A stretch of DNA of 53,803 nucleotides, the filler included, from Malassezia furfur (Eukaryota): the NCBI GenBank assembly GCA_052055015.1. It is 2 parts of 2 records of this genome, joined end to end, with 100 filler letters (N's around TTAATTAATTAA, not from the genome) between each part and the next. Parts side by side here need not be neighbours in the genome. Positions count along the whole stretch, not along the records: positions 1 to 26,911 come from JBQJIT010000120.1; positions 27,012 to 53,803 come from JBQJIT010000121.1. One strand, 5' to 3'. The notes under the pieces were generated by a model, which searched no databases, was not told the DNA's origin, and worked only from the letters and a program-made list of their open reading frames with translations. Positions 25 to 52,600 of this stretch are shown here, piece after piece (the stretch's first letter is position 1; each line of letters opens with the position of its first letter). Position numbers and translations under genes: made by a program.

Positions 25-1740
25 TTACGACGACTCGTAGGGCTCCTTTTTCATTCCATACAAGGCTTGGTCGGGAGACGATTGATCAGGCACAGCCGGC
101 GGCATGCTCGCATCTGTTCCGTGTGTTTCGTTCCACACAGCGCCTGATGGCGGCGGGAAGGACAGGTGCGACTGCGACGGCTGCTGCGGCGGCGGCGGCG
201 GGGCCGATGCTGCCGGTGTCTGTGCCGACGACCGTGAGAATGGCAGCGTCGGTTCGCTACTCCCTGACGCGATCGATGATTCGCGCCATTTTGCCTCATA
301 CAGCTGCCGCAACTCAAACTCGAGCATGTGGTTGCGGCGCATCTGCATATCGAGGAATTGCTGGAGTTGACGCACGTATTCGACGCTTTTTCGCAGGATG
401 ATCCCCTTATTGGGTTTTGCCTGCGCTGCAGCCAGTGCAGGGTTATCTGCGTCCACCGGCGATAGTGCGGATGCGAAACTCGTAAACGAGGGCATGTTCA
501 GGCATGAGTCCTTGGGAATGCCCCGGCTCTGGTTCAGCGCCGGGTCCTGAACCTGCCCCTCATTTCCAATAGTACGCCAGGATCCAAGACCAGTGCGGCT
601 GCGCGCCACCTTGGCTGCCGTCTCGGGCCCAAACGTCCACGATGCGCTGTTGCCGCCTTGCGTTGAGGTCCTGTCGCGTGAGCGATGAAGACGTACGTGA
701 TTGCGTCAAGTAACATGGTTTCGGGTAACAGAGTGGCCACTGGGTCAGTGCTCGGGATCATACGTACGCTCGGTCATTTGGCTGTTGATATTGTCTCGAC
801 GGCGACGCTCGACGGCATTGTGGGACTCGCGCCGTCTTCGACGCTTGTCCATAAGCTTTTTGGCTTCTGACTCATTGGTAGACATCAACGTTGATGGAAT
901 CGATTCAGTCTCGTCCACGTTGTCGTTATCCGATGGAATCGAATCGTCCACTTCCCGGGCGTAGTCCTCCGAATTCGAGCGCCCGGGACGGGCACGGATC
1001 TGCGGATGAACCCACGCGTGCGAGGTACTGGCCAGGGTATCCCCACTTGATCGACGTTGGTACGGCTTTCCATGATCACTCGGAGACGGATGAAAGCCTT
1101 CGCGCGACCGCATGTGCTGCACATTCCATGGCGTTAAGTAGTTGGGTGGGCCGGGCCCCACGGCGGGGTGTACGTCGGGGGGTACCATGGGTACCCCATG
1201 TTCCTCCCCGAACCGTTTGGAACGCGGATGCGCAAAAGTGGTCGAGGCGGCGGACATGCTTTGCACATTACCCTCTGCACTTGTGAATGAACGGCTAGGC
1301 GGCGGTTCGTTCGACCTATGCTGCGGCAAAGAGTAAGCAAGATCCCGCTCCATGGTTGGTCCTACGCGGTCGTACGCAAATGACGGCTGTGAGGCCGAGG
1401 CCGAGAGCCCGTGATGCACAGGGTGCATCGTTTCCATCGTTTCGTGGCGAGGTCCATGCCATACGTTGTGGGCCTCGGGGAACGGCCGTTGGAAAGGAAT
1501 GCCCTGAGAGAATTCTGGATCCTGGGCATGTACTTGCTGTGGCGGGGTAATATGTCTCCAAAGTTCATTATTCAGAAGGAGATCCATGTCGATGTAGCTG
1601 GTATTTCCGATGGGTATATTGGAGCCTGGGTTGTTGGGCGCTTGTCCCATGTCGGTGGCGCGTGCGGGTTCGAAGCCATGCGATTTTCGTTTTGGAGATT
1701 GTCTGTGACTTTCTTGGGCATTAGGATCCATAATGCCCAT
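25..1740 (-). CDS. bHLH(-ZIP) transcription factor, Rtg3/TFEB-like
   Basis: Basic region RRRRESHNAVERRRRDNIN and helix 2 KPNKGIILRKSVEYVRQLQ. The ORFs join in frame after removing GT-AG introns 740-767 (28 nt) and 671-696 (26 nt). Confidence 0.88.
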
Positions 1741-2083
1741 TCACTGCATTTGAGAAGGTACAATTGTCAAACAGAATTAAATCGGTAGGACAAGCGATTG
1801 TGTCGTTCGTTCTTGGGGGGGTACCTACCCCACAAGATGTCCGGTAACGACACCAAAAAAAACCATTTTCACAACTTGGCAAGTGTTTTAATTACCGAGA
1901 CGGTTACCGATTGGTGGAACGGGGCAAGTTTATTCGGCAAACGCCGCAATGGCGAACGTCATCTTATGCCGCAGTCGGGATCGGCCGTGAATTTACAAAG
2001 TGGAGAGCCTTTATCTCACATTAGACCTAGTAGGCTTCCTGACTAACTTCTTCAAGTCGCTGACCGGTCACGGGCCACTCGAC

Positions 2084-3626
2084 ATGGATCTCGACGCGCG
2101 GTGGGAGCTCAATTCGCGCGTTCTGCGGCGATTTGATCCCAAATTTGCGACAATTACGGCAGCCGCTTCATTCGCGGTTCTTTACAGCTACGACAAAGAA
2201 TGGGTATGTGCACATCACTGACCCAGACCAAAACGGGGACAGAAGGGCCTCTGTTCCTCTACCAACGGTAAGCGCGAAGCATCGGCTTACACCAGCTCCG
2301 AGGCACCGTATTATGGCCTCAAGATCCTCAATCGAAACGATCCCGAGAACTTTTCGATTGGCATCACCCCTGACGACGACATTGAGCTGAGCGACGAATT
2401 CATCATTTACCGCCCGAAACATGCAGGTACGACCCCGCACGCTCATGATCAGATGACGCGGACAGTGACGAGTCAGACATTTATGGGATCTGGGTCTTTG
2501 AGCCGTCCCAGCTCAAGCAATTGAGGGAAACCATCCAAAAGTGCGCACATGACACTGACCCAGATGTCAGCACGATCCCTATCCACCTCCGCCTGTGCCG
2601 GAGAGCGACAGCAAGATGCAGTCGGTCGACATGGACACGCTGTTTGGCTCAAATAAAGTACCAGAAGAAGCTGGCATAAAAGAGACACAGCCGGTGCATG
2701 CGTTCACTGAGTCGGAGCGCAACGGCGCATCGATTCTCAATGCCCTGTTCCGTGACGCTGCGCCATCTGAAGACTGGATGAAGGAAGCCGGGGCACCAAA
2801 AACCGAAAAGACGGAGACGGATTTGCCAACGTCGACACCCGCCGTCCCGGCGCCTGCCCCGAGTGAGATCAGTGACGCGGCATCCGCCTCGACCAAGCCA
2901 GAAACGCGCGCGCCGCGCAATGAGCCCATCAGCCTCGACACGCTGTTCGGCTCAGCGCAAGGGACTCCGCAAAAGCCCGTGGAAAAGGACACGGCCAAGG
3001 CTACGGCACAGCCGTCAGACAAGCGTGCGGAGACGCCAGAGTCCAAGATGCCGTCCATCGACCAGTCGAGCAAGGAGGATGGACCTTTGGATGTCGAGAA
3101 CGGCGCAACACCCAGCAAGGCCGGTGACGAATCAGCAGAGGAAAAGGAAGAGTTTATCGATGCGACCGAGACAGGTCCGCTGGAGGGTATCGAATCCCAA
3201 GACACGACGGACGTGGTCGAATCGACCAAAAATGTTGGGATGCACAAGGACGACGCGCAGCACTCAAGTGCGGCGGAGCACAGCGACCCGAAGGACGTGG
3301 CGGAGGCATCCACCACGAGCGCGATGGGAACAAGCCGTGCGACGATTCCTGCGTCGACGCAGTCCACTGAGTCTACCCCGACGGTGGGTCCGGAGAGCCA
3401 GGAGCGTGTGGCCCAACCACAGAATCTCTTGTCGCTGCTCGCTACAGGTAAAGCCCCCGAGCGCCTGGCCCAGCGGTCGAAGCACCTGAGTCGGATGGAG
3501 TTTGTGCAAACGATGGTCACTCTCCTCTATGTACGTTCATTGGAGAATACGGGGCTAACGGGTATACAGACCGATCCGGAATACGTGGATCAGCTTTATG
3601 AGACGTATCTCTCCCATCAAGGTTAG
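2084..3626 (+). CDS. DCP1: mRNA decapping enzyme subunit Dcp1 (EVH1 domain, low-complexity linker, C-terminal helical domain)
   Basis: Spliced N-terminus MDLDARWELNSRVLRRFDP..LYSYDKEWTKTGTEGPLFLYQR..YGLKILNR..IYGIWVF matches the Dcp1 EVH1 fold. Introns 2204-2226, 2268-2295, 2427-2452, 2541-2563 and 3531-3569 all restore frame. Confidence 0.88.
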
Positions 3627-4543
3627 GGACTGGCGCGTGAATCGTCATTGGGATCGGAGGCTGGCAGGGGATCGAGATGCAGATGCTGCTCGACACGCAA
3701 GAGACGCTCGCCGAGCACCATAAGTAGCGTCCGAACCTTGTCCATCTCACTCGGTGGCTCATCTGGGATCTTGGGACTGGTATCTCCGGACCATTCGTCG
3801 TGTCCAGGCCTGCCCACGAGCGTAGGACTGTGTTTTGGCACATTCGAATGGATCGAGTGGCCCGAAGCTGACGTTGTACCCAATTGATACCTGGTGTCAG
3901 CATGCTTAACGTACACAATGATCGCGTCGACGTGAAAAGCAAAAGCCTCACGAAGCTCCTCCAGCTCGGAGGGAGTCCCATGGTATTTTCGCCCGAGGTG
4001 GTGCATACACTGCTCGCAGCGGAGTACCGAGTACCGACTGCCCAGCGTAGGCCCAGGCTCGCTGCTCGTGATGGGCGGGTCAACGACCGCGACTTTGTCG
4101 GTCGCCTCTCTCAGGACAATCATAGACAGCTGGCGCTGCGCCGTGATCCATGAGAACGAGTCACTCACGATCGTGAAACAACGCGCGCATTGGAAGACCA
4201 GCGCAGGCGGCGAGGCCTCAGCGCTATGCGACCGCTTGAGAGGTGCCTGTGTAGCTTCCTGCTTCGGAACGTAGGATGCTGGTGTAGTCTCACTGAGCAC
4301 CGACGAGAACTCAGGGGATAAGTGACCTTCTGCTGGGGGAGCCGCGGTGCGGGGCGGCCGGCCGCGTTTGCGGGGGGGACCCCCCGTCGTGGTGCGCACG
4401 CGCCGCGGAGCTGTATAAGAAGGAGTATACTTACATGCCGTTGATACGCCTCGGCTCAGCCCGGACGCGGTCGGATACGACGACAAGGGCGGCCGTCCGC
4501 GCCTTGCGGGCGCACCTGCGCGTGGGACCGGCGCTTCGCTCAT
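3623..4543 (-). CDS. MIS18: Mis18 (Yippee/Mis18 zinc-binding domain) CENP-A deposition factor with N-terminal AT-hooks
   Basis: VFQCARCFTIVSDS..LRCEQCMHHLGRKY..YQLG has two CxxC motifs, followed by a C-terminal helix. In-frame 24-nt intron at 3891-3914; ATG at 4543. Confidence 0.82.
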   Translation of the reverse strand: MSEAPVPRAGAPARRGRPPLSSYPTASGLSRGVSTACKYTPSYTAPRRVRTTTGGPPRKRGRPPRTAAPPAEGHLSPEFSSVLSETTPASYVPKQEATQAPLKRSHSAEASPPALVFQCARCFTIVSDSFSWITAQRQLSMIVLREATDKVAVVDPPITSSEPGPTLGSRYSVLRCEQCMHHLGRKYHGTPSELEELREAFAFHVDAIIVYVKHADTRYQLGTTSASGHSIHSNVPKHSPTLVGRPGHDEWSGDTSPKIPDEPPSEMDKVRTLLMVLGERLLRVEQHLHLDPLPASDPNDDSRASP

Positions 4544-5488: not shown

Positions 5489-7125
5489 ATGTCGTCCAAC
5501 TTGGTACGTCCGCCCACGCGCCGCTGACCACACAGCCTGTTCGCCGCGCGCCGGTACGCACGCGCAGCGCTGCGTCCAAAACAGACGAAAACGCGAATAC
5601 CTACCGTCCGCTCCGTACAGCTGGCGGCGCTGGCGCTGCCAAGGATGTGCTCGGGAAAAGCAAAGCGGCCTCGGCTAGCACAGAGAGTGCGCCGACGCGC
5701 CCTAGCGGTGCCGCCTCGGGCGTGCTCGGCATCCGGAAGCGGGCTGCCTTGGGCGACCTGACGAATGCGACGCGTGCGCGCACCGCCGCGCTGTCCAAGC
5801 CCGGCGAGAAGAGCGCCACGGACGAGAAGGACACCAAGCCGCCGCCGCGGACGCGCGCGACGGTCAGCTCGCTGCCAACGCGCGCGGGATCCACCCAGCT
5901 GCCATCGCGCAGCACCGCCGCACGTCGTGTGCTGCGTGCGAAGCATGAGGCGCCTGAGGCGATGATGGTCGATGAGGCGCCGCGCGATGAGAGCGACAAG
6001 GAGAATGTGCATACCCAGCAGCCCACGGAGCGTGTCGAGGCCATCGAGGTGCGCGAGACGAAGCGTGCCAAGGTCGCCGAGGCGGCACCCGTGCGTGCGA
6101 AAGACGAGGGGTGGGAGGATCTCGACAAGGACGACATCGACGACCCGTTGATGGTCGCCGAGTACGTCGAGGAGATCTTTGCATACATGCGGCAGATTGA
6201 GCTGCAGTGCATGCCAAACGGCGACTATATGAGCATGCAGCGGGACCTGAACTGGCACCTGCGCGGCGTACTCGCTGACTGGCTGATCGAGACACACTCC
6301 AAGTTCCGCCTACTCCCCGAGACGCTGTTTCTCGCGCTGAATGTGGTGGACCGCTTCCTCAGCCTGCGCACCATCTCGCTGTCCAAGCTGCAGCTCGTGG
6401 GCGTCACGTCGCTGTTCATCGCGGCGAAGTACGAAGAGGTATTGTGCCCCTCGATCCAAAACTTTCTGTACCTGGCGGACGGCGGTTATACCGACGAAGA
6501 GATTCTGCGTGCGGAGCGGTACATGCTCAAGGTGCTCAACTTTGACCTGAGCTACGCCTCGCCCATGAACTTTTTGCGCCGCATCTCCAAGGCGGACAAC
6601 TATGATATCCAGACCCGCACGGTCGCCAAGTACTTTATGGAGATTTCGCTGGTGGACCACCGGCTGATGGAGCACCCGCCCTCGTTGATCGCTGCCGCCG
6701 CCGTGTGGATGGCGCGCGAGGTGCTCGAGCGCGGCGAGTGGACGCCGACGCTCGTGCACTACTCGACCTATGCCGAGAACGAGCTGCTTGGCACGGCCGA
6801 GATCATGCTTGACTACTGCCTGCGCCCCCCGGCGCACGCCCACTTCCACAAGAAGTACAGCAGCAAGAAGTTTATGCGTGCGAGCGCGTACGTCTTGGAA
6901 TGGGCCAAGAACACCTTCCCGAACGCCGTTATCACTGAACAGGACATTGCCCTGGGCCGCTGGACCGACGAGGCCGGCGAGTCGCACTCCCTCGAGATGC
7001 TCCGTGTGGACCTTTACGCGAGGCACGGCCACCCACGCCCCTCGGTGCTCCCGCTCGGCTCGGCGCCCGAGTCGTCGCCAAACCCGCTGCGCGCAGAGAG
7101 CACCGAGGTGGAGGGTGCGTCATGA
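5489..7125 (+). CDS. G2/M B-type cyclin (Cdc13/Clb-like)
   Basis: D-box RAALGDLTN; cyclin box LRGVLADWLIE..PETLFLALNVVDRFLS..KLQLVG..KYEE. First exon MSSNL, then intron 5504-5535. Confidence 0.95.
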
Positions 7126-7188
7126 TGAGCCGCTGTAGACAGCGCTACGACATTCCATAACTGCCCGTACGTCGCGGTAATCCATTGT

Positions 7189-8304
7189 TTATTCCTCCTC
7201 TACTGGACCAAACACGGACGTCTTGAGCGTCTCGCGCAGCAGCTCGAGCCGCACATGTGCTGCCTGGTGGTCGCTGGGTGAGCCATGGAGACGTACGCCT
7301 CGGAGGAGAGCTTGGCGAGCGGCTGCTCCGCCGCGCGCCGCTCGAGCGCCGCTGCGAGTTGTTCGGCAGGCTCGGCGGTATGGGCACTGGCGGAGCTGCG
7401 GCCCGCCTGGGTATACGACGCCCCGCCGGGGATCATGCCGGCATTCGCGATCCGGGCCCGGGCTTGGGACAGCTGGGTGACGAGCTCGTTCGTGTGTTGG
7501 ATACTTAGCATGCGCTGCAGCAGGGACGGGCTTGAGCACAGCGTGTGCGCCCAGTACTCGTTCCACAGCAGCGCAAAGAGCGGGCGTTCCGCCGAGGTGG
7601 TGAACAGCTCCACGTCCAACGCATAGTAGCGATCGGCGTGCGCGCCATAGTCCTCGGCCTTGTGCGTAGGCAGTGCCGCATGCTGCGATGCACGCCCCTC
7701 GGTGCGGTAATCCGCAGGGAAGGTGCGGAATGCACCGATGTCGACTTTGCCCGTCGTCATCGTGTGGTGAGGGTCGATCTGCGTCAGTGCGCCGTCTACA
7801 TACCACCACTGCGACAAAAGGGTCCTGCTGCTGGTTGGTCTGTTGCGTCTCGACGTCAATGCCCGACAGCCAGCACCGGTAGCCTGGGTGCGAGTGGTAC
7901 CAGCCGACCGCCTGCTGTGGGCGATGCACGGCATGGTCCTGCTCGAGGTACTGGATCATGTACTCGTATGCCTCGTTCTGTGCATTCACGCGCGTCTCAG
8001 TACCATGCACGGGCAGTGCGAATGCGTCAAGGATGTAAAAGGTATGTGTTTCGGCACACACGGTGCCCTTCATGAGGCCCATCACCTCGTTCGCCCCGCC
8101 GAGGCGCGCGTGGAGGACCATCTTCATTAGGGCCACCACAGAGACGCGCACGCGCCGGAAGAAGTGTGGATCGGCGCGCCATGGTGCCTCGCGCAGTAGG
8201 CGCTGGTAGGCCTCCGCATCGAATTCGTAGATACGCCGTGTCTCGGCATCCAGGGCCACCACGTCGTTTTGGACCTCAAACGTGGTCCGCGCGGCCGCCT
8301 CCAT
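7189..8304 (-). CDS. CSN5: COP9 signalosome subunit 5 (JAMM deneddylase)
   Basis: EVMGLM..GTETRVNAQ..GWYHSHPGYRCWLSGIDV..DPFVAVVIDP..GKVDIGAFRT. Introns 7779-7803 and 7274-7296. Confidence 0.95.
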   Translation of the reverse strand: MEAAARTTFEVQNDVVALDAETRRIYEFDAEAYQRLLREAPWRADPHFFRRVRVSVVALMKMVLHARLGGANEVMGLMKGTVCAETHTFYILDAFALPVHGTETRVNAQNEAYEYMIQYLEQDHAVHRPQQAVGWYHSHPGYRCWLSGIDVETQQTNQQQDPFVAVVVCRRRTDADRPSPHDDDGQSRHRCIPHLPCGLPHRGACIAACGTAYAQGRGLWRARRSLLCVGRGAVHHLGGTPALCAAVERVLGAHAVLKPVPAAAHAKYPTHERARHPAVPSPGPDRECRHDPRRGVVYPGGPQLRQCPYRRACRTTRSGARAARGGAAARQALLRGVRLHGSPSDHQAAHVRLELLRETLKTSVFGPVEEE

Positions 8305-8350: not shown

Positions 8351-10185
8351 ATGTCGTATGCAGTGGAGGGGTGTGTCGCGACGGTACTCGCGGTGCTGGC
8401 GGCGGCCTGGCTGCTCGGACCGTGGGGTGAGCTGGCGGTACCCACGATCGAGCCCGTGGACCCCGAGCAGGCGCGTCCAGGCTGGCAGGGCAAGCTGCGA
8501 CCCGACCCTGCGCCGCCCGTCGTCACCGATGGCCGCATCCTCTGCGTGGACCCGGCGACCGGGTTCGTGATCGACACACTTGAGGCCGACACCCCGCTCA
8601 CGATCCACGCCAAGATCACAGCCGCGGCTGAAGCGCAGAGTGCGCTGCGCACCGCGTCGTGGCCCAAGCGTCGCCAGTTTCTACGCGCGCTGCGCGCATG
8701 GGTCATGCGCGACATGGAGACGCTCGCACGCATCGCGTGCCGCGACACGGGCAAAACGGTACGCTGTGGATGGTATACTGATCTAGGCGATCGACGCGGC
8801 CTTTGGCGAACTGCTCACGACGTGTGCCAAGCTGAACTGGACGCTGTCGAATGGCGAGAAGGTGCTTAGGCCCGAGACGCGGAGCGGCAATCTGCTGCTT
8901 GCCCACAAGCGGTGCACGGTCGTGCACGAGCCGCTCGGTGTGGTCGCAGCGTGTGTCTCGTGGAACTATCCGGTGCACAACATGCTCGGCCCGATCATTG
9001 CGGCGGTGTTTGCGGGGAATGCCATCCTGGTCAAGTGCTCGGAACACGTCGCGTGGACGTCGCAGCAGGTCATTCTTGGCGTGCACCGGTGTCTCGCGAC
9101 ATGCGGCCTGCCCACCGAGCTCGTGCAGCTTGTTGTGTGTGCGCCAGAGCACGCTGAGTCGCTCACGCGCGACCCGCGCCTGGCGCACATCACGTTTATC
9201 GGCAGCGACCGCGTCGGCCGTGCCGTGGCGCTCGCTGCGGCGCCGCAGCTGACGGCGACGACGCTCGAGCTGGGCGGCAAGGACCCCGCGGTGATCCTGC
9301 CAGGCACCGACCTAGCGTTCTTTGCGTCCATGTTCCTCCGCGCGTGTTTCCAGGCGATGGGCCAGAACTGCATTGGGATCGAGCGGTTCATTGTGCCGCG
9401 TGACCAGACCGATGCGCTGGTGAACGTCGTGCGCGACCGGATCGCGGCACTGCGGTGCGGTAGCACGCTGGATGAGACGCGGTTCGGCACGCACCGCCCA
9501 GGCGCCGACGCGGTGGACTGTGGCGCGATGATCAGCGACGCGCGCTTTGCCGAGCTCGAAGCGCTCATCGACGACGCCGTGCAGCACGGTGCGCGCCTCG
9601 TGCTTGGCGGGCACCGCGTGCGCCACGGGCGGTGGCCGCTCGGTTACTACTTTGCGCCAACGCTGCTGACGCACGTCACCCCTACGATGAAAATTGCGCA
9701 GGAGGAGCTGTTTGCGCCCGTGTTCCTCGTGATGAGCTACGACACGGTGGACGAGGCGGTGGCCATCGCCAACGGCACCCCGTTCGGGCTCGGGTCCTCG
9801 GTGTTTGGCCCGAACCGTGCGACGTGCCACGAGGTGGCCGCGCGCCTGGAGTGTGGAATGGTGAACATCAATGACTTTGGTATCTCCTACCTGAACCAGG
9901 GCCTGCCGTTCGGCGGGTGCAAGGACAGCGGCTATGGCCGGTTTGCGGGCCCCGAGGGCCTGCTGGGCCTCACACGGCCCAAGGCGATGACCGAGGACTG
10001 GGCGTTTGGCATCGTCCAGACGTCCATCCCGCCCGTCGTTGACTATCCCGTGCGCGACACGGCCAAAAGCTGGACCTGTACGTCGCGCCTCTCACCCAGT
10101 CTTGCACGGCCTCGTGCGCCTGGCATTTGGCACGCCCATCGAGCGTGTCCGTGGTGTGCTCGGTGTGCTGCGTGCCAGTATGTAG
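8351..10185 (+). CDS. MSC7: Msc7-like aldehyde dehydrogenase with N-terminal hydrophobic anchor
   Basis: SWNYP, ITFIGS, LELGGKD, GQNCIG (catalytic Cys), EELFAP, LPFGG..SGYGRFAGPEGL. Introns 8759-8786 and 10078-10099. Confidence 0.85.
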
Positions 10186-12281: not shown

Positions 12282-13188
12282 TTAAGCCTTGAGACCACCC
12301 CGCGCGCCGCCCTTGGCCTGCTGACGGGAGATCTGAGAACCGGTCGACTGCAGCGAGGCCTTGTTGGCCTTGCGCTCAGCCTTGCGCTCCTTCTTGGCAG
12401 CCTTGCGCTGCGCGAGGTCCTCCTTGCGCTGCGTGGCACGCACCTCGGGCTTCTGGTTGCGGCGCGACTGGATGTCCTGGATGCTCGCACCCACAACACC
12501 ACGCTGGTGCTTCACGGTGCGGCGCGTGCGGCGCTTGGCAGCCTCCTCAGAGATACCCTTCTTGTGCATGCGGCGGTACAGCACAGTCCAGGCAATCTTA
12601 CGGGGGTTCTTGCGCTGGTGGAAGAGCGACTCCGACTTCGACGAGATGAAGCGGAACACCTGCGCAGTTAGTATCGATTGCACGAAAAGAAACAGGCTGC
12701 AATACGCCCAGGTACGCGCAGACACATAGAAAGGGGCATACAGGCATAGACGCGGCGGTTCAAGCATCGCATCTCTTCAAGACAGAAGAGGTATACGCGA
12801 AAGCTTGTTCTTCGTCTCACCTGATCCCATTGTGCTCGACGAACGGCACAAAAACACACTGTTTCCCGTGAGAAAGGGGGTAGAGACGTGTGAGGTATCG
12901 AGGGCAGAACCACGCACGCGAGTGTGAGGTGTACTCCCACTGTGATCCACGTCCCACGTCCTTTGCCCACGTCATCATACAGCGGCGCCCCTGTATGCCA
13001 CTTTACGTCTGTGTCTGCGCCTCATTGTACCATAGGCGTATGCCAAACCCGTGCTTCGTCAGTACACACCTTGCTGTCACCACGGACGAACAGCTTGCCG
13101 TGGCCCCTGACGGTTAGCGCCCTGTTGTGTCTTGTCGTACGTACGGGTAGATCTTCTTGTTGCTGAACGAGCAGATTTCGACCTTCAT
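12282..13188 (-). CDS. RPL24: 60S ribosomal protein L24 (eL24)
   Basis: Spliced [62 protein letters not shown]. Introns 13107-13144 (38 nt) and 12660-13069 (410 nt, TACTAAC branch). Probable 5'UTR intron 13189-13271 ending immediately before the ATG. Confidence 0.96.
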
Positions 13189-13477: not shown

Positions 13478-14724
13478 GTGTCGTTCTTCCAGACTCCTAG
13501 TGCAGGTGGATGGGGCGCCCGCACGGCGACATCCACCACCGGTGGCGCAGGTACTGCGCGCGTATCCGGCGAGCAAGATATTGAGGTCGTGCCCGGACCT
13601 ACGGACACGGTCTCCAGCTTGGCCTTCTCCCCCACGGCCGACGTTTTGGCGGTGGCGAGTTGGGATGGCTACGTGCGCATCTACCGCATCGACAAAACCA
13701 ATGCTCAGCCCGTGCAGCCCTATCAGCAATACCAGCACGAGGGGCCCGTGCTTGATGTGTGCTTCAACGCCGACGGCAGCAAAGTCATCTCCGGTGGTGC
13801 CGACAAAGTCGCACGGTGCTTTGACTTGAATACCAACCAGTGCGCAGTCGTTGCGCAGCACAATGACACAATACGCTGCGTGTGCTGGATCCACGCATTC
13901 GGGGGCGCGCTTGTCACGGGCAGTTGGGACAAAACGGTCAAGCTGTGGAAAATCGACCCGCAGCCGACGCTCATTACGTCGCTCGACGTGCCGGAGCGCG
14001 TGTATTGCATGGATACCATTGGTCTGATCATCATTGTCGCGACGGCGGAGCGCAAGATTGTCGCGTTCCAGTGCAACGAGGCGACCGGCACCGCAGCGCA
14101 GGTCGCGAGCATGGACAGCCCGCTCAAGTACCAGTCGCGTTCGATTGCTGCCCTCCCCGAGGGCGATGGCTTTGCGCTGGGTGGTACCGAGGGCCGCGTT
14201 GCTGTGCATTTCTTCCACGACCCGCCAGACCCTAAGGATGGGCGCGTGTATGTACCCTCCCACTGACCTCAGGAAAAAGTTTGCCTTCCGGTGCCACCGC
14301 CGCGCCAATGCAGATCACCCCGATGTGCCGCGGAACGAGACGCACTTGTTCCCCGTCAACGCGATCAAGTTCAACTCGCAGGGCACATTTGCCACGGGTG
14401 GTGGAGACGGCTCGATTAGCTTCTGGTGCAAGGCGAGCCGCACGCGTCTGAAGAGTATGTGTTATTAGCTGACCCAGTGTTTGAAACGAAAGGATCGTCG
14501 ATGGCACCCAAGGAGGTGTTCAAGACGAACCCCAACCGCCTGCCTATCACGGCGCTGGCCTTCAACGCGGACTCGAGCATTTTCGCCTACGCACGTACGT
14601 TACGTCTACTCACACAGTCGGTTACGATTGGCACAAGGGCTACCAGAATGCGACCAACGAGGCGCACGTATTCATACACCCCGTCAACCCGGAGGACATC
14701 AAGAAGCGTCCGCCGAAGACATAG
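13478..14724 (+). CDS. RAE1: Rae1/Gle2 WD40 mRNA export factor (putative GUG start)
   Basis: [50 protein letters not shown]. Introns 14248-14272, 14455-14477 and 14595-14617. The start codon position is inferred. Confidence 0.9.
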
Positions 14725-26911: not shown

Positions 26912-27011
26912 NNNNNNNNNNNNNNNNNNNNNNNNNNNNNNNNNNNNNNNNNNNNTTAATTAATTAANNNNNNNNNNNNNNNNNNNNNNNNNNNNNNNNN
27001 NNNNNNNNNNN
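26912..27011. other. Artificial contig-joining spacer
   Basis: 44 N + TTAATTAATTAA (26956-26967, stops in all six frames) + 44 N, exactly 100 nt. Confidence 0.97.
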
Positions 27012-31988: not shown

Positions 31989-32855
31989 ATGGCCTACCCC
32001 ACGGCGTACCCCGCATTTGCCCAGGCCGAGTTCTTCGCGGTGCAGTGGCTCGCGCCCAACGTGCTGGGCGTCGCATTCAACCGCGCGCCCGTCAACGCCT
32101 TCCACGTCGCGATGTGGACCGAGATGCACCGCATCTTTGCGCACATCAAGCTCGACGGCGACGTGCGCGCCGTCGTGCTGTACGGCCACGGCAAGTGCTT
32201 CACCGCGGGCCTCGACCGTACGTGCACGACTGACCCAGTGAGCGACACCGTGCTGCAGGACATCCTGGCGCGCGACGACCCCGCGCGCGTCTCATTCGGC
32301 CTGCGCGAGCTCATCGACCGCTTCCAGCAGGCCATCACCTCGATCGAGGTGTGTGAGCGCCCGGTGATTGGCGTCGCACACAGCCACGCGATCGGTCTCG
32401 CGATCGACATCCTGAGCGCGGTCGACATTCGCTACGCCTCCACTGATGCGCGCTTTGCGATCCGCGAGGCGGCCATCGGCATCGCCGCCGACATCGGCAC
32501 GCTGCAGCGTTTCCCCAAGATCGTCGGGAACGATTCACTGACGCGCGAGCTCGTGTACACTGCGCGCTTCTTTGACACCGACGAGGCGCTGCGCATCGGG
32601 TTTGTGAACCGCGTGCTGCCGACGCGCGACGAGGCGTTCCGTGCGGCGGTCGCAACCGCCGAGGCGATCGCCGCACACTCGCCCGTCGCCGTGTGCGGCG
32701 CCAAGCAGGCGCTCGTGTTCTCGCGCGACCACTCCGTGCCCGAGGGGCTGCAGTTCATGCAGTACCTCAACGCGGCGCTCCTGCAGACCGACGACTTCGG
32801 CACCGCGGCCATGGCCGCCATGGCCAAGACGAAGCCGACGTTTGCCAAGCTGTAG
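31989..32855 (+). CDS. Peroxisomal crotonase-fold delta3,5-delta2,4-dienoyl-CoA isomerase (Ech1-like)
   Basis: FTAGLDL after removing intron 32218-32238, IGLAIDI..VDIR, ADIGTLQRFPKIVG, C-terminal PTS1 AKL. Confidence 0.88.
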   Translation: MAYPTAYPAFAQAEFFAVQWLAPNVLGVAFNRAPVNAFHVAMWTEMHRIFAHIKLDGDVRAVVLYGHGKCFTAGLDRTCTTDPVSDTVLQDILARDDPARVSFGLRELIDRFQQAITSIEVCERPVIGVAHSHAIGLAIDILSAVDIRYASTDARFAIREAAIGIAADIGTLQRFPKIVGNDSLTRELVYTARFFDTDEALRIGFVNRVLPTRDEAFRAAVATAEAIAAHSPVAVCGAKQALVFSRDHSVPEGLQFMQYLNAALLQTDDFGTAAMAAMAKTKPTFAKL

Positions 32856-40656: not shown

Positions 40657-41446
40657 CTACTTCCGCGACGCCTTCTTCGCCGACGCAGCAGGCTTCTTGG
40701 CCTTGCTCGCGGCCTTCTTCGCGGTCGTCGTAGTCTTCTTCGTAGTCGCCGCCTTGGCAGGCGCCTTCTTGACCCGCTTCGTCGCTGGCGACGCCTTCGC
40801 TGCCGCCGTCTTCTTCGCCGCAGGCTTCGCCTTTGCCGCAGGCTTTGCAGCCGCCGCCTTCTTCGCGGCCGGCTTCGCCTTGGTCGTCGTGGTCTTCTTC
40901 GCGGCCGGGGTCTTCTTCGCGGCCGTAGTCTTCTTCGCAGCAGGCTTCGCCTTGCTCACGGTCTTCGTCGCAGCCGTCTTCTTGGCCGCGGGCCGCGCGC
41001 TCGCGGCCTTCTTGGCCGCAGGCTTCGCCTTGGTCGTCGTGGCGGCAGTCTTCTTCGCAGCCGTGGTCGCGGGCTTCTTGGCGACCACCTTCACGGCGGC
41101 CGGCTTGCCCTTCGCCAGCAGGCGCACCTTGCCGCTCATGCCCTTGGGCAGCGAAAAGATGCCCTTGGCCTCGCCACGCGCGATCGCCTGGTTCAGGTGC
41201 GTGGTGAAGGACGCAAGGGGGATGCGGCCCGTATCGGGGTGCTTTGCGAGGATGTACTTCTTGATCGTCGGGCGGCCGAGACCCAGACGCGCCTCGAGAC
41301 CGTATGCAATGATCGCCTCCTTAATCATGTCCTATCGCGTCAGCGGAGGGGAGGCGTGCACCTACCTCGTATGTCAGACTCGTCTTCTTGGCAGAGGCCG
41401 TCGCCTTCTTGGCGACGCCCTTGGCACTCGTTGCAGCAGGGGCCAT
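40657..41446 (-). CDS. Linker histone H1
   Basis: TYEDMIKEAI..GLGRPTIKKYI..KGMSGKVRL globular domain and K/A/P-rich tail. Intron 41332-41365. Confidence 0.92.
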
Positions 41447-43705: not shown

Positions 43706-44294
43706 CTACTTGATCTCGAGCAGCTTCACGTCAAAGATCAGCGTCGAGTTGGCGGGGATGCCGGGCAGCTTGGTGCGGCCGTAGGCCAGCGCCGGCGGGC
43801 ACACGAGGCGGCGCTCGCCGCCGACCTGCATGCCTTTCACGCCTTGGTCCCAACCTGACGTAAGCGCCGACGACCTACCCTTGATGACCTCGCCCTTGCC
43901 GAGGCGGAAGGAGAACGGCTTCCCCTTGGTGTTCGAGTCAAAGATGGAGCCGTTCATCAGCTTGCCGACGTAGCGCATGCTCACGCGCTGGCCAGGCTTC
44001 GCCGTAGGGCCGGTACCGATCTTCTTATCTTCAATCGTCAAACCAGAAGGGAGCACAGTCTATTCGAGCAACCCGTTAGCCATCAAATAGCGGGCCAGAA
44101 GAGCGCGCACCTTCTCGTCCTCCTTCTTCGACGGCGCGGCAGCGGCCGCCGCCTCCGCCTTCAGCTTCTTGTTCAGACGCTTGCGCTGGCCACGGCTCAG
44201 CTTCGGCTCGTCGGCCTCGAGCACGTCCGCCGAACGCTTCTTGGGGGGGAGGACCACGACCTCGTCCTCGTCTTCCTCGTCGTCCTCGTCGTCC

Positions 44295-44326
<32 letters not shown>

Positions 44327-45143
44327 GTCCTCATCGTCCTCGTCGTCCTCATCGTCCTCGTCGATCTCCACATCGTCGATCTCGACGTCGTCCTCGTCGT
44401 CCTCGTCATCGTCGTCCGAGTCCTCCTCGTCCTCATCGTCCTCATCGTCGTCCTCCTCGTTGTTCGAGCGGTCGGCGATCGCGAGGCGGTTGCCCGACTC
44501 CTCGTCGTCCGAGTCCTCGTCGTCCTCGTCGTCGTAGAGGCCCTCGTAGTCCTCAGGGTCGAGGTTGTTCAGCGACGTGGGCAGCAGGTAGTTGCCGATG
44601 ATGTCCACGGGCTGGTCGCCGGTCACCGAAAGACCGACCTCCTCCTCCTCGCTGATCTGGAGGTTGAGCGTCACCTGCTCGACCTGCGGGTTAGTACGCG
44701 ACGCATGCGGCACAACATACCTTCTCGGGAATGAGCGAGCACACGACGTACGAGTCCTCCTCGGTGAAGATGGGCTCGTCGTCCTCGTCGTCCGAGTCGA
44801 TCTCGTCCGAGTCGATCTCTTCGTCGTCCTCGTCGTCCTCGTCGTCCTCGTCATCGTCCTCGTCGTCCTCGTCGTCCTCATCGTCCTCGTCGGCCTGCTC
44901 GAGGATCTCCGCGATCTCGTCCTCGTTCAGCTCGCGGTCCTCGTCGTCCGAGTCCTCGTCGTCCGAGTCGAACGCCGGGTTGCCGGCGTAGTGCACACGG
45001 AGCACCGTGCGCTTTTTCCCGCTGAGCTCCTCGGGGTTCGAGTAGCTCACATTCGTGATCTGAATGTCGCGGATGGTGTCCAGGTGGTAGATCTCACCCG
45101 GGTTGAGCCGCAAGGTAAAGAATTCAACAGGTGCCGAGCTCAT
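43706..45143 (-). CDS. Nucleolar FKBP-type PPIase with nucleoplasmin-like and acidic domains (Fpr3/Fpr4-like)
   Basis: N-terminal NPL segments, long D/E tracts and C-terminal FKBP ([34 protein letters not shown]). Introns 44684-44720, 44060-44110 and 43855-43878. Confidence 0.92.
44260..44970. repeat. Coding (TCG/TCC)n low-complexity repeats encoding poly-D/E tracts
   Basis: Runs of TCGTCC at about 44260-44535 and 44776-44970 inside the FKBP gene. Confidence 0.9.
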
Positions 45144-45255
45144 TATGGTGAGGGCAGTAGTGGAACCAACGCCACGAAGATGCACCCACTGAAAAGGAAA
45201 TTTTTTTCGCAGATGCTTACGTAGACTGTGCATGAACGTGCTCAAACCACCTCCA

Positions 45256-46920: not shown

Positions 46921-46957
46921 GCGGAAGAAATGCGCGTGCGCCTCCACACCGTGGTGG

Positions 46958-48820
46958 ATGCGGCGTCTCGCGCGGGGGACCGCGGCCGGCCTGCGTGCGG
47001 CCGCCCGCTACCCGACCTGGGCCAACGTCGTGTACGCGCTCGCAGTGGGCGCGATACATGCGGGCGCCACGCGTGTAGACCTCGTCGTGCTCTTCGACGC
47101 ATGGACCGTCGTGTGCAAGGACAACGGCCGCGGTGCCGACGTGCTTCGGACCGCGTGCGACAGCGACTGGGCGTACGTGGGCCTACTCGACGTGGACGTC
47201 GCGCTGCGCACCGGGCACTATACGCAGCTGCAGCGCGACGACCATGTCCTCTATGCCGGCCCGGCGCCGGCACAGCGCGCGCGCCGGCGGGGAAACAGTG
47301 TTGCGCTGCACGACCTCTTTCGCACGCTGCCCGTGCGCCGGCGCATCCTGCATGCCGCGCGGCGCACCGAGCTGCGCCATACGCAGGAATGCATCCGTGC
47401 GCTAGCGCTCACGTTTCCGCACATCCACTTCACCCTGGCCACGCGCACGGCGCGGCTCGTGCGGGCGCCGCACGCCGCGTCGCTCCTTGAGCGTGTGCGC
47501 CGCGTGTGGGGCGCCGCGCCAATGTCGGAGACACGCACCGTGCATACCGTAGAGCGCATCGGGGCCTGGCGCGTCGAGCTCGACGGCGTGATCGGCGCGC
47601 TAGGCCCCACGACGGCGCATCAGCACGTGTCGCTCAACGGCGTGCCGGTACCACGCACGCCCGGGCTCGCGAGCGTGTATGCGCTGCGCGAGGCACGGCA
47701 CTCGGACACCCTGCCGTGGCAGAGCAGCGCCGCGTACGACCGGTTTGGCGCGGGCGACCGCTCGCTGCATGCGCACATTGCCGCGCTGCTCGACACCCGG
47801 CGGGGCGAGCTGCACCGCGCATTTGTGCTAAATGTGACGGCGGTGCGGGTAGCCGGTAGGCAGGCCGGGAGGCTTCCGCGCGACTGGTACGCGCTGTTCG
47901 CCATGCTCCTGGCGCCGCACACGCCGCGGCGTGCCCCGACGGCAGCTGTGGCCCGTGCGCAAACCAGCCGCTTCTTTGCGCCCAGCGCGCGCATGCCGCG
48001 ACCCGTATCGATGCACCGCACACCCGCCGAGGTACAGACCCTGGCACCCGTTCCCCCTACCGCGCTTGCGCATGCGCGCTTTGTCGCGCAGGTGGACGCC
48101 AAGTACCTCGTGTGTGTAAGTGCGCCGCACGGCCTGCTGCTCATCGACCAGCACGCAGCCGACGAGCGCGTGCGCCTTGAGGCGCAGGTGACGCAGCACG
48201 TCACGGCATGCCTCGAGGCGCACGCCCACGGCACGACGGCGCATATGCGCACCTGTCGGCCTGTGCGCATCGAACGCGATGCGCTGCGCCTCTCGGACGC
48301 CCACCTCCGCCTGGTCCGGTTCTGGGGATTTCGAGTGCATGGTGCGCAAGCATGGACCGTGGATGCGGTGCCTGCGCTGCTCGACCGCCTTGCGCGTGAT
48401 CCGGAGCTGCTGCGCCGCGCGCTGGCGGCGTTTGCCGAGCAGGCCGTTGAGCCCATCGAGGCATGGCTCGCGACGCTCGCGACCGCGTCGCGCACCGGCG
48501 CAATTGCGGCGCTGCGGCACTGGCCAAGCCTCGTGAAGCACCTTGTCGTGACGCAGGCGTGCCACCAAGCCATCCGTACGTGACCGACTCACACAGGATT
48601 CCAGCAGCGCCTGACGGACGAGCAAGGCGCGCGGCTCGTTGCGCAGCTCGCCGAGACCGCCTTCCCACTGCAGTGTGCCCACGGGCGTCCTTCGGTGGTC
48701 GCGGTGCATGCGACGCTGGGCCGCGCGACGCACGCCATCGACTGGGCGTGGCTCGCCTCCGATGCTACCCCGCATCCCGAAGCCGCCGCCCTGGCGCCCC
48801 CGCACGATCACGTGCCGTAA
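46958..48820 (+). CDS. MLH3: MutL homolog Mlh3 with degenerate ATPase domain
   Basis: DNGRG, DLFRTLPVRR, AQVDAKY, IDQHAADERVRLE, ACHQAIRF and FPLQCAHGRPS after removing intron 48576-48596. Confidence 0.88.
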
Positions 48821-48856
48821 AATTTGTGGTCGCGCCGCGGCCTGTTTTCCGGCGGC

Positions 48857-49466
48857 ATGGACCTGACGAACCTGCGGGAGAGTCTGGACCACACGGCGAA
48901 CCAGCCGGGCGACTCGCTGCGCCATGCATACGACGAGAAGCTAAACAGCGAATTCCGAGGTACGTGGCTCTACTGACGCAGTCGCGGCGCTGCAGCTCAC
49001 CAACTTGTACAAGAGAGGACTGGAAAATACCCACGACGCACTCCAGTCCGGCTATGCGCTCGCCCTGCGCGACATGCTCGACTACGTCCGGGGCCGTGGC
49101 GCCAACAGCAGCGGTGCGGACCTCGAGCGCTACCTGAATGCGCGCCTTGAGACGCTGCAGCATGACGCAAACGACGTCGCGAACGAAGCGCGCGCGACGC
49201 CGACGCCCAAAATGCGCCGCGCGACACGCACGGCATCGCACCCTGCGGCGCTGCAGACGCCGACGCGTTCGAGCCGCTCGGAGCGGCTCGGGACCAAGGT
49301 GTATGCGGACGAGCCCAAGACGCCGGCGCCCGAGAGTGCGGCGCCCGACGAGGCGCCGGCGTCGGATGCGACGCCGGACAGTGCGGCGGGCGTGCGGCCG
49401 CGCAAGCGGATACGCCCTGTGCCGCGGCGCCGTGCCGATGCCGGTGTAGACGCCCACATAGAATGA
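48857..49466 (+). CDS. Small conserved protein, HAPSTR1/C16orf72-like N-terminal helical domain
   Basis: Spliced (intron 48960-48981) FRVAALQLTNLYK..GYALALRDMLDY resembles the F..AA..(V/L)T.LYK..GY..AL.D motif; basic C-terminus. Confidence 0.55.
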
Positions 49467-49648
49467 CACGATACCCGCCCTGCGACCCCCCTGCGCCCTG
49501 CGCGCGCGGCGGCCCCTGCCCCAGCCGCGCCCTGGGGTCGCGCATGAGCACGTGGCCAGCGGGACCTGTGGAGGCTGGGGCCGTGCTTCGCGTGCGAACG
49601 TGCGAGCCGCGCCTGCTTCTCCCTGTACCGCGTCGGGGGCTAGGCGCG

Positions 49649-52600
49649 ATGCAGTATGTGGGCAAACTTGTGTCCTCTGTATACAACACCATCACGCCCA
49701 ACATCAATCCGTCTACACTGAATGGCGCGATTGATGTCATTGTGGTGGAGCGCGAGGTAGAAGTCGAGAAGAAGGTGACGCAGGAGGATGGGACGGAGCG
49801 CGTCGAGAAGCACAAGACGACCGAGCTCGCCGCGTCGCCGTTCCATGTGCGCTTCGGGAAGCTGAGTGTGCTGCGTCCCGACGAGCGCAAGGTGACGCTG
49901 CACCTGAACGGGTCGCCGGAGCCGCTGCCGTTCGCGATGAAGGTCGGCGAGAACGGCGAGGCGTTCTTTGTGATGAAGATTGACGACGCGGCCGAGGGCG
50001 TGCCGCAGGCGCTCGTCACGAGCCCGATCGTCGGCCCCGCGTCCGAGTCGAGCTCGCCCAAGAACCCCGAGCTGGAGCCGCTGGATCTGGGCGTGTCGGA
50101 GACGTCGCAGGCGACGTCGGCGGCGGCGTCGCGGCCGGCGTCTGCGCCCGCGTCTGCGCCCGCGTCCGAGAACGGCGAGTGCGACACCAGTTCCGACTCC
50201 TTCCCCGCGCCGTTCGGCTCGGGCACGCAGGATGTGCCGGCGCTCGAGCTCGAGAATGTGCCGTCCGGCGGCGACGAGGAGCTGCACGCGAGCAAGCAGG
50301 GTACGTTTTGCACGCTGACGCAGTGGTGATGGACTTGCTCGACATGGACGGCTACAAGGTCACCGAGCACAAGCAGCAGCACGCGCTCGCGCAGGGCCAG
50401 CGCTTCGCGAACGAGATGCCCCTCGCGAAGCGGCACGGCGGCAACGGCAGCCTCGGGTACGGCGAGCGGCTCGACCGGCACCGCCCGCGGTGGAAGCGGC
50501 AGCTCATGGCGCAGGTCGCGCACCCGCTATCGAGCGCGGACCTGACGACCGACGTGCCGCTGCGCCCGGGCCACTCGCGGCGCGCGAGCGATACGTCGCT
50601 GCACGTCACGAGCGACGGCGCCGCCAGCGAGCCGGCGGGCGAGCGCCCGTCGCTGCCGGTGTCGGTGAGCGACTCGGAGCTGGTGCCGAACGCGCGGTAC
50701 ATGTACGAGACGCCGCGCGGCGGCAACGGGCGCCTGGGCGGCGACGGCCTGCGCGACGACGAGGGCGCCGGGATGAACTCGCTGCCGGCCGACGGCGACC
50801 AGCTGATGGGCAAGCTGGCGTGTGCCGAGAGCGACCCGTACGTGTTCCAGCTTCAGATGGACTCCAACACGCTGTACACCTTTGAGCTGAGCCTGTGCCA
50901 CCTGCCCGAGTTTGACGAGGCAGACGCGGCGCAGCGCCGCTACCTCTTTGACGAGGCGCGCGTCTCGTTCCAGCGGTTCCTCGAGGACAAGTCGATCGTC
51001 GACGACGCGCGCCTGTGCATCCGGCACGACGACACCTACCACACGTGGGTGTCGAACGTCGACATGTTTACGTCGCTCGCCGCCTACCGCTCCGCGCTGC
51101 TGCACGCCGACGAGGCGAAGAAGGACGAGGCGCCCGCCTCGAAAAGCTCCGTGTGGGCGCGCCTGTGGGGCAGCAGCAGCAGCAGCGACGCACCCGCGCG
51201 CAAAGGCGCGCGCAAGCCGCAGCCGGGCGCGACCGATGCCGGGAAAGACACGCCGGCCGTGGAGCCGCTGCGCAAGGCGATGAGCGACCTCGCGATGACG
51301 GCGTCGGCGATGATGCCCGAGGCGTCCGCCGCATCCGAAGCGTCCGAGGCGTCCGAGGCGCCCGCCGCGTCCGCCGCCGCGTCCGATGTGCCCGGTACCG
51401 CGTCCGAGGCGCTCGGGACGCCGCCCGCCGACGCGCCCGGCGACGCGCCGCCGCCCGCCACGGAGACGTACGTCAAGACGCTGCGCTTGACGTCGGACCA
51501 GCTGAAGCAGCTCAACCTGCGCAAGGGCGCGAACAACCTGACCTTCTCGGTCACGTCGTCGTACTCGGGCGTCGCGACGTGCCGCGCGCGCGTCTTTTTG
51601 TGGGACCGGCTGCACCCCGTCGTGGTGTCGGACATCGACGGGACGATCACCAAGTCGGACGCGCTCGGCCACGTCTTTACGCTGATGGGCCGCGACTGGA
51701 CGCACCTCGGCGTCGCCAAGCTGTACCACGACATTGCCAAGAACGGATACCGCATCCTCTACCTCACGTCGCGCGCGATCGGCCAGGCAGAGATCACGCG
51801 CGACTACCTCACCAACATCAACCAGAACGACTACCACCTCCCGGACGGCCCCGTGATTATGAGCCCCGACCGGCTGATGGCGAGTCTGCACCGCGAGGTG
51901 ATCCTGCGCAAGCCCGAGGTGTTCAAGATGGCGTGCCTGCGCGACATTGCGCGCCTGTTCGGCGACGACCCCAACAAGCCCAACGAGACGCACACGCCCT
52001 TCTACGCCGGCTTCGGCAACCGCATCACCGACGCACTCAGCTACCGCAGCGTCAACATCCCCTCGAGCCGCATCTTTACCATCGACGCAGAGGGCGAGGT
52101 GAAGATGGAGCTGCTCGAGCTCGCGGGGTACAAGTCGTCCTACCCCAACATGACCGACCTCGTCGACCAGATGTTCCCCCCCACCCGTGTCACGCACCCC
52201 CGCGACGCCGAGGCCGCTGCATACACCGACTTCAACTTCTGGCGCACGAGCCCCGCCGAGGTCGAGCTGCCGCCCGACGAGGAGCTCGTGCCGGTCGTCG
52301 TGCAGCCCAAGTCGCCGTCGATCCGTGCGCTCCGCAGCCCACGCAGCGCGTCGCGCCAGAGCAGCATGTCGCTCCGCTCGCCGCCGACGCAGGCCGCCGA
52401 CGCGGAGCGGCCCGGGCGCTTCTCGCGCTTTGGGCTGCCGAGCCTCGGCCTGAGCCGCCGCAAGGACAAGGACAAGGACAAGGACAAGGAGAAAGACAAG
52501 GGCAAGGGTAAGGGCGACAAGGACAAGGGCGACAAGGACAAGAACACCGACAAGGACGCCCGGCAGACGCCGAGCCCCGAGTTTGGCCCGCGCTCGCTCG

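What the first reader, a model, noticed from the sequence alone, without database searches (positions are those of the whole stretch)
671..50323. Pervasive ultra-short spliceosomal introns (21-29 nt) with the branch point close to the acceptor
Seen: hand-splicing gives 36 introns, 28 of them 21-29 nt. Four are 21 nt (DGA1 21035-21055, ECH1 32218-32238, ELP1 34553-34573, MLH3 48576-48596). The typical form is GTA(C/T)GT, a short spacer, then CT(G/C/A)AC and a CAG within about 4-8 nt (often CTGACCCAG), with no polypyrimidine tract. Each removal restores a conserved protein motif or the reading frame. Known: Malassezia introns are short, but 21 nt approaches the smallest introns of ciliates and nucleomorphs. 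Inference: the branch A is only about 15 nt from the donor, too close for ordinary simultaneous U1 and U2 binding, implying a modified spliceosome.
Basis: partly seen in the sequence, partly recalled or inferred. Interest (0 to 1): 0.72.

Follow-up and report, generated by a model that had tools for sequence, protein, structure and literature searches.

The report
Malassezia micro-introns with 21-base floor
The genes of this skin yeast are cut by introns of mostly 21-29 bases, with a sharp lower limit at 21, although the splicing parts found look nearly ordinary; short Malassezia introns were known as an average, but this limit makes a culturable yeast a possible model for how a spliceosome removes such tiny introns.

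Summary
All four 21-nt introns are at the stated places, and I recover 28 introns of 21-29 nt in the window. ELP1 is 99% identical to Malassezia furfur, and the assembly holds two diverged copies of many regions. In 575 kb sampled, lengths peak at 22 nt and stop at 21. The limit is geometric: branch A at position 16 or later, usually with a 5-nt tail. Between the two copies the splice signals are kept, the spacers diverge, and codon phase fits removal in 57 of 63 clear frame-shifting cases. No RNA reads were available, so splicing and branch sites are inferred. The 'modified spliceosome' is only partly supported. U2, U5, U6, U1-70K, U1C, Luc7, SF1, both U2AF subunits, SF3b1 and Slu7 are present and look canonical. 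One change was seen: U2AF65 has lost 3 of 4 RNP1 aromatic residues. U1 RNA was not found, which is inconclusive. Short Malassezia introns are in print (mean 30 bp, RNA-seq backed), and shorter ones exist in protists. I found the floor, its geometry and the U2AF65 change in no paper searched.

The parts
671..696 (-). 26-nt intron, HLH gene
   Evidence: signals and frame; HLH on upstream ORF
740..767 (-). 28-nt intron, HLH gene
   Evidence: stop if retained
2204..2226 (+). 23-nt intron, DCP1
2427..2452 (+). 26-nt intron, DCP1
2541..2563 (+). 23-nt intron, DCP1 (GTGCGC donor)
3531..3569 (+). 39-nt intron, DCP1 (3n, stop-free, weaker)
3891..3914 (-). 24-nt intron, Mis18/Yippee gene (3n)
4411..4434 (-). 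24-nt intron, Mis18/Yippee gene (weaker: signals and frame only)
5504..5535 (+). 32-nt intron, cyclin
7274..7296 (-). 23-nt intron, JAB/MPN gene
7779..7803 (-). 25-nt intron, JAB/MPN gene
   Evidence: removal gives VVIDPHHT
8759..8786 (+). 28-nt intron, aldehyde dehydrogenase
   Evidence: Pfam positions 8-87 and 85-460 on the two exons
10078..10099 (+). 22-nt intron, aldehyde dehydrogenase
12660..13069 (-). 410-nt intron, RPL24: long introns persist
   Evidence: read from sequence; Pfam L24e 26-66 on downstream exon
13107..13144 (-). 38-nt intron, RPL24
14248..14272 (+). 25-nt intron, WD40 gene
14455..14477 (+). 23-nt intron, WD40 gene
14595..14617 (+). 23-nt intron, WD40 gene
15161..15186 (+). 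26-nt intron, LepA-type GTPase
   Evidence: Pfam 3-81 and 81-185 on the two exons
16351..16372 (+). 22-nt intron, LepA-type GTPase
20168..20196 (-). 29-nt intron, DGA1 intron 3
   Evidence: same position in L138 (25 nt), L154 (39), L215 (44), L139 (47)
20488..20509 (-). 22-nt intron, DGA1 intron 2
   Evidence: same position in L138 (24 nt) and L209 (54 nt)
21035..21055 (-). 21-nt intron, DGA1 intron 1
   Evidence: stop if retained; same position in L138 (26 nt) and L139 (56 nt)
21540..21561 (+). 22-nt intron, Cnd2 condensin subunit
26193..26217 (-). 25-nt intron, Sec1 family gene
30785..30806 (+). 22-nt intron, MFS transporter
   Evidence: Pfam 10-72 and 83-345 in different frames
32218..32238 (+). 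21-nt intron, ECH1 (3n, stop-free)
   Evidence: removal restores AGLDL
34553..34573 (-). 21-nt intron, ELP1
   Evidence: stop if retained; Pfam A-sol_ELP1 1-67 and 67-203 on the two exons; spliced form scores better in 102 of 120 homologues
41332..41365 (-). 34-nt intron, gene not named by Pfam
43855..43878 (-). 24-nt intron, nucleoplasmin-like-domain gene (3n, stop-free)
44684..44720 (-). 37-nt intron, nucleoplasmin-like-domain gene
   Evidence: Pfam 1-64 and 59-93 on the two exons
48576..48596 (+).
   Evidence: stop if retained; MutL_C
48960..48981 (+). 22-nt intron, small downstream gene
   Evidence: stop if retained
50301..50323 (+). 23-nt intron, lipin

Best explanation
These are ordinary major-class (U2-type) spliceosomal introns, at least partly ancestral, that deletions have shrunk to a working floor. 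Shown from sequence: a 21-nt intron is a 6-nt donor (GTRYGT), about 5 free bases, R-CTNAY with the presumed branch A at position 16, one base and YAG. The floor is set by donor-to-branch distance (16 or more) plus a 5-nt tail, not by total length alone. Inferred: the 3' end is read as one fused element. SF1 binds the branch motif and U2AF35 the adjacent YAG, while U2AF65 mainly links the two, since no pyrimidine tract fits and its RNA-stacking residues have decayed. Inferred, less sure: U1 and U2 cannot sit as in the human A/B complex, so they act in sequence or in a compressed form. U2 pairs over only about 5 bases and U6 over +4 to +6, and a 16-nt lariat loop is the smallest this spliceosome accepts. 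My odds: real spliced introns 0.95; floor set by splicing geometry 0.8; fused 3' reading with scaffold-type U2AF65 0.55; sequential or compressed assembly 0.5.
For: Length wall: strict calls at 19, 20, 21, 22 nt number 0, 0, 22, 40 in 575 kb. A further 267 kb gives none at 16-20, 15 at 21 and 24 at 22; one 15-mer is a nested donor. With a relaxed caller, pairs under 21 nt: 0 of 11 pass the phase test (7 fail, 4 unclear); pairs of 21-29 nt: 90 pass, 8 fail, 67 unclear. Branch position among 181 passing copies: 38 at 16, none at 11-15, 2 at 10. Spacer identity between copies is 63% (322 of 510) against 85-90% overall; 28 of 94 pairs differ in length, 25 of them by non-multiples of 3. DGA1 introns share positions with 24-56 nt introns in relatives. 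U2AF65 keeps 1 of 4 RNP1 aromatics, the same in both copies, where 115 of 140 ungapped homologues keep all four. In M. sympodialis 99% of 5350 introns (mean 30 bp) have RNA-seq support (PMC5389616, Table 2).
Against: No reads or lariats for this organism: the branch A is inferred from a motif that the callers required, so motif frequencies are partly circular. The phase test cannot judge 3n introns, and 17 of 29 passing 21-nt copies carry no in-frame stop. 6 of 63 clear non-3n pairs fail the test. 15 of 140 U2AF65 homologues also keep only 1 or 2 aromatics, so the erosion is not unique. Position +4 is mostly C, which matches neither U6 ACAGAGA nor a canonical U1, and stays unexplained. U1 RNA was not found. 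In the ELP1 test 12 of 120 homologues favoured the retained form and 6 tied.
Confidence: 0.75

Rival explanations
1. No adaptation at all: any fungal spliceosome could splice a 16-nt loop given strong signals, and the U2AF65 change is neutral decay after the pyrimidine tract became unnecessary.
For: Nearly every part looked up is canonical. Stentor and myxozoans splice shorter or equal introns with conserved snRNAs and, in myxozoans, U2AF (PMC9505925; PMC13644364). Most fungi lack a pyrimidine tract.
Against: Human assembly is abolished at 35 nt donor-to-branch (PMC6692369). Named relatives such as Melanopsichium and Ceraceosorus keep the U2AF65 aromatics.
Confidence: 0.3
2. A deeply rewired early spliceosome: U1 snRNA has diverged beyond recognition or has a changed 5' end fitting GUACGU, so the donor is handed to U6 by an unusual route.
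For: RF00003 gave no match and six pattern searches gave no U1 (Rfam scans of candidates). GTACGT is the donor in 101 of 181 copies. The U2 and U5 Sm sites end in UUUUUCG.
Against: U1-70K with an intact RRM, U1C and Luc7 are present. The assembly has 1856 contigs; U2, SF1, SF3b1 and Luc7 each came back in one copy only; only 41 of 173 first-look candidates were scored, and 100 of 152 hits listed.
Confidence: 0.12
3. The segments are mostly retained or are assembly artefacts.
For: No transcript evidence here. Short microsporidian introns are spliced at under 20% (PMC6349667, passage).
Against: Most lengths are not multiples of 3, and the introns interrupt core genes, among them U1-70K (4 introns, both copies). 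Frame, signals and positions are conserved across copies and relatives.
Confidence: 0.03
4. Recent introner-type insertions rather than shrunken old introns.
For: The introns look alike and are numerous.
Against: Likeness is confined to the signals; spacers carry no consensus. All three DGA1 introns match positions of longer introns in other contigs. Only this one gene was tested.
Confidence: 0.05

Closest known systems
Malassezia sympodialis and M. restricta introns (PMC5389616; PMC9241646; PMC6473144; PMC7426719)
   Same: Same genus. Mean 30 bp with 99% RNA-seq support; median 30 bp; annotation run with minimum intron 15-20; 'very short introns'.
   Different: In the passages I saw these are table values with no branch geometry, floor or spliceosome inventory; 'branch' occurs 0 times in PMC5389616 text and supplement. 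Its Figure S8 size curve is not visible to me and may show the lower limit. Median here is 24 nt among 224 passing copies up to 70 nt.
Stentor coeruleus 15-16 nt introns (PMC9505925) and mikrocytid 16-17 nt introns (PMC10245619)
   Same: GT-AG, 5-nt tail after the branch A in Stentor, sharp lower limit.
   Different: Those are shorter (Stentor branch at 10-11) and almost fixed in length; mikrocytids have a strongly reduced spliceosome. Here lengths run from 21 to at least 410 nt, introns are GC-rich with strong motifs, and the U1 proteins are kept.
Paramecium (~25 nt, PMC5014332), myxobolid and dicyemid (22-27 nt, PMC13644364), Trichomonas type B (23-25 nt, PMC12316389), microsporidian (~25 nt, PMC6349667) introns
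   Same: Same size class; Trichomonas also fuses branch site and acceptor.
   Different: Myxozoan signals are weak and U2AF is described as conserved; Trichomonas has 24 such introns. The 2026 myxozoan paper lists ciliates, microsporidia and dicyemids as exceptions and does not mention Malassezia. I saw no clear lack of 3n introns here (75 of 208 copies).
Yarrowia lipolytica, Giardia and Trichomonas fixed branch-to-AG spacing (PMC2483917)
   Same: No pyrimidine tract, branch anchored next to the acceptor.
   Different: Those are intron-poor, and Yarrowia introns are long; here the donor side is compressed too, across thousands of introns by extrapolation.

Membership tests
Major (U2-type) spliceosomal intron | GT...AG ends with a U2-type donor | tested here: met
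Major (U2-type) spliceosomal intron | Branch motif able to pair with U2 GUAGUA | tested here: met
   RCTNAY conserved between copies; U2 motif canonical
Major (U2-type) spliceosomal intron | U2, U5, U6 snRNAs in the genome | tested here: met
Major (U2-type) spliceosomal intron | U1 snRNA in the genome | tested here: inconclusive
   not found; U1 proteins present
Major (U2-type) spliceosomal intron | U4 snRNA in the genome | not tested
   no search made
Major (U2-type) spliceosomal intron | Removal needed for the reading frame | tested here: met
   57 of 63 clear non-3n pairs; stops and Pfam joins
Major (U2-type) spliceosomal intron | Excision from mRNA as a lariat | not testable with these tools
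Reduced spliceosome (microsporidian, mikrocytid, Cyanidioschyzon type) | Loss of U1 proteins and many peripheral factors | tested here: not met
   U1-70K, U1C, Luc7, SF1, U2AF35, U2AF65, Slu7, SNRNP27K found; RED_N gave no match, uninformative; SF3a, other SF3b subunits, NTC and helicases not searched
Minor (U12-type) intron | RTATCCTT donor and CCTTAAC branch (motifs recalled) | tested here: not met
   donor and branch tallies; the callers were built for U2-type donors
Introner-like elements | Sequence-similar copies at new positions | tested here: not met
   no spacer consensus; 3 of 3 DGA1 positions shared with relatives; one gene only

The most novel reading that the evidence does not exclude
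Malassezia has rewired early spliceosome assembly for a 16-nt donor-to-branch loop. U2AF65 no longer reads RNA, branch site and acceptor are read as one unit, and U1 snRNA has diverged or co-evolved with the GUACGU donor so that U1 and U2 never occupy the intron together. This would be the first such pathway in a culturable yeast with an otherwise full set of splicing factors.
Probability: 0.2. Interest if true: 0.8.

Novelty: new member of a known kind. Interest (0 to 1): 0.5.

Why it matters
How a spliceosome removes introns under 25 nt is open, since human structures need about 50 nt between donor and branch. The known cases are ciliates, obligate parasites and relic nuclei, most of them hard to work with. 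Malassezia grows in culture and has genetic tools (subject of PMC7426719; I saw the listing and one passage), and by extrapolation it holds some 4,000-5,000 such introns per haploid genome. A sharp 16+5 floor gives a direct reporter test and a cryo-EM target. There is also a practical point: the public M. furfur ELP1 protein lacks four residues at this junction, so gene models made with a higher minimum intron size mis-splice these genes.

Tried and rejected
U1 snRNA: one Rfam family search and six patterns, none positive. The best-looking candidate (C361/C440) is the antisense of a last coding exon and scored nothing in Rfam. Introns under 21 nt: the 15-, 17- and 18-nt strict calls are second donors nested in 21-24 nt introns; the 17- and 18-nt ones fail the phase test. 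A U6 change matching +4 C: U6 is canonical. Loss of METTL16 or SNRNP27K as cause of the +4 pyrimidine (link recalled from memory): both present, SNRNP27K with RQYMNR. Loss of Slu7: present. RED_N: no match, but nothing rang in the prokaryote controls either. Second copy of the window: two DNA searches returned neither the window nor a second copy, so the copy test rests on other contigs. Candidate 13054-13091 dropped; 10385-10405 and 34693-34713 are antisense look-alikes inside open frames and were not counted. Rfam finds nothing in the window at gathering scores. Literature searches that found no paper on Malassezia intron geometry or spliceosome; the library lacks most subscription journals.
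Full report
Check of the observation. The four 21-nt segments are at the stated coordinates. Pfam matches join across several of them: ELP1 positions 1-67 and 67-203, aldehyde dehydrogenase 8-87 and 85-460, the GTPase 3-81 and 81-185 (65 chosen ORFs scanned). Retaining the DGA1, ELP1 or MLH3 21-mer gives an in-frame stop. ECH1 is stop-free, but removal restores the AGLDL motif seen as A/SGIDL in solved chains. For ELP1 the spliced form scores better in 102 of 120 homologues, the retained form in 12, and 6 tie; 64 align without a gap across the junction. ELP1 is 99% identical to a protein named Malassezia furfur. That public record lacks four residues at the junction.

Genome-wide pattern. G000 has 13.7 Mb in 1856 contigs, and many regions occur twice at 85-90% identity. 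A donor-branch-acceptor pattern with a 6-nt tail matched 497 times against 3 for the reversed pattern. It allowed 19 nt, yet none of the 100 listed hits is under 22 (counted from the listed coordinates). I fetched 575 kb from six pairs of two-copy contigs, a sample biased to large contigs. Strict calls number 0, 0, 22, 40, 30, 17, 24 and 14 at 19-26 nt, with about 0.4 expected per length from random DNA. Another 267 kb of loci gave the same wall.

An internal test without RNA. Differences between the two copies fall mostly on third codon positions, so they show the frame on each side of a candidate. With the strict caller (motif needed in one copy only), 44 of 49 clear non-3n cases fit removal, 3 fit retention, 2 fit neither and 18 were unclear. 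With a relaxed caller, 57 of 63 clear pairs fit removal and 40 were unclear; none of 11 pairs under 21 nt passed. Splice signals are almost invariant, while spacers are 63% identical and tolerate 1-base indels. The test cannot judge 21- or 24-nt introns, and 17 of 29 passing 21-nt copies have no stop. For these the support is signal conservation and cases where a 21-mer pairs with a 22- or 24-mer. Counting passing and unclear pairs, 157 in 258,658 aligned columns extrapolates to about 4,000-5,000 per haploid genome, near the 5350 introns of M. sympodialis.

Geometry. Among 181 passing copies of 21-29 nt the presumed branch A lies at 16-24, apart from one doubtful pair at 10, and the tail is 5 nt in 128. 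Short loops are not offset by longer tails to any extent, so the floor is 16+5. Only one base separates CTNAY from YAG in most cases, so no pyrimidine tract fits. The base 4 before the branch A is a purine in 75%, and the one before it has no preference, which leaves a U2 pairing of about 5 bases. Long introns still occur (410 nt in RPL24).

Origin. All three DGA1 introns (21, 22, 29 nt) sit at the same codon and phase as introns of 24-56 nt in unnamed metagenome contigs, among them intron-rich ones (L209, L215). I examined 27 of the 80 loci fetched, and several lack these introns. This favours shrinkage of old introns, on one gene.

Spliceosome. U2 keeps GUAGUA, U6 keeps ACAGAGA, U5 keeps loop 1. 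Present: U1-70K with an intact RRM, itself split by four 23-28 nt introns in both copies; U1C; Luc7, SF1 with KH-QUA2 and the SF3b1 HEAT region to its C-terminus; U2AF35 in two copies; Slu7; SNRNP27K and a METTL16-family gene, each with a 21-nt intron candidate. The N-termini of U2AF65 and SF3b1 run off their contigs. U2AF65 reads ESRAVLEF where human reads KNFAFLEF, and RGIAFCEF for KGYAFCEY; the second copy shows the same losses. Of 150 homologues, 10 were gapped, 115 keep all four aromatic positions, 10 keep three, 11 keep two and 4 keep one, as here. The two closest hits (unnamed, 75% and 52% identical) keep two, while named smut-fungus relatives keep them. That these residues stack on the pyrimidine tract is recalled RRM knowledge. 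U1 snRNA was not found. The assembly is fragmented, several genes came back in one copy only, and the search is prefiltered, so absence is not shown.

Mechanism. The best reading is canonical U2-type splicing at a geometric floor, with the 3' end read as a fused branch-acceptor element and U2AF65 acting mainly as a link between SF1 and U2AF35. In the human B complex a 17-nt U6 helix, a 14-nt U2 helix and about 21 nt of linker need about 52 nt (PMC6692369). Sixteen bases cannot take that path, so assembly must be sequential or compressed. That step is inference, and it does not require lost subunits.

What is known. Seen as passages: PMC5389616 (also supplement text; figures not visible), PMC6473144, PMC9241646, PMC7426719, PMC8476143, PMC12316389, PMC2396436, PMC6692369, PMC5014332, PMC2483917, PMC10245619, PMC6349667. 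Read in part: PMC13644364 (part 1 of 3 plus passages) and PMC9505925 (parts 1-2 of 6). Short Malassezia introns are in print as averages, and introns as short or shorter occur in Stentor, mikrocytids, myxozoans, Paramecium, Trichomonas and microsporidia. Ten searches found no paper on the Malassezia floor, branch geometry or U2AF65; one search for Malassezia with Stentor and intron returned only a taxonomy review. Figure S8 of PMC5389616, which I could not see, may show the lower limit. Four look-ups of the scan's earlier notes gave nothing relevant.

Verdict. A real feature and a new member of a known kind. Interest 0.5: the shortness is partly known and a rewired spliceosome is unproven, but the sharp floor in a workable yeast makes an open question testable.

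Noticed in passing
L001:1501-1693 (-); L092:1501-1617 (+): The Sm sites of U2 and U5 both end in UUUUUCG rather than the Rfam consensus UUUUUG(G); possibly a lineage-specific Sm site.
   Followed up: partly
window 12660-13069 (-): A 410-nt RPL24 intron in a genome of tiny introns; it holds an ATGATGA box-C-like word and may host a snoRNA. Rfam found nothing at gathering scores.
   Followed up: partly
P0002 against window 34553-34573: The public M. furfur ELP1 protein lacks four residues before this intron and is also shorter than close orthologues (1297 against 1309-1371 aa), a sign of gene-model errors at tiny introns.
   Followed up: partly
genome sample L012-L071: Donor position +4 is C in 67% and T in 22% of 181 copies although U6, SNRNP27K and a METTL16-family gene look canonical. 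Unexplained.
   Followed up: partly
genome sample L012-L071: A faint second length mode near 35-37 nt.
   Followed up: no
L138-L159: DGA1 intron sizes differ widely among close relatives (24-26 nt in L138, 41-56 in L139, 37-56 in L154, none evident in L142), so shrinkage varies by lineage.
   Followed up: partly
window 46652-48580 (+): The MutL_C gene showed no N-terminal ATPase domain in the ORF scanned; the 5' part of the gene model was not worked out.
   Followed up: no
L125:180-345 (-): Weak match to the H/ACA snoRNA S_pombe_snR3 (35 bits, E 0.003, below gathering).
   Followed up: no
window 26912-27011: Two 44-base N runs mark a scaffold gap; only bases 1-26911 map to contig C120.
   Followed up: no
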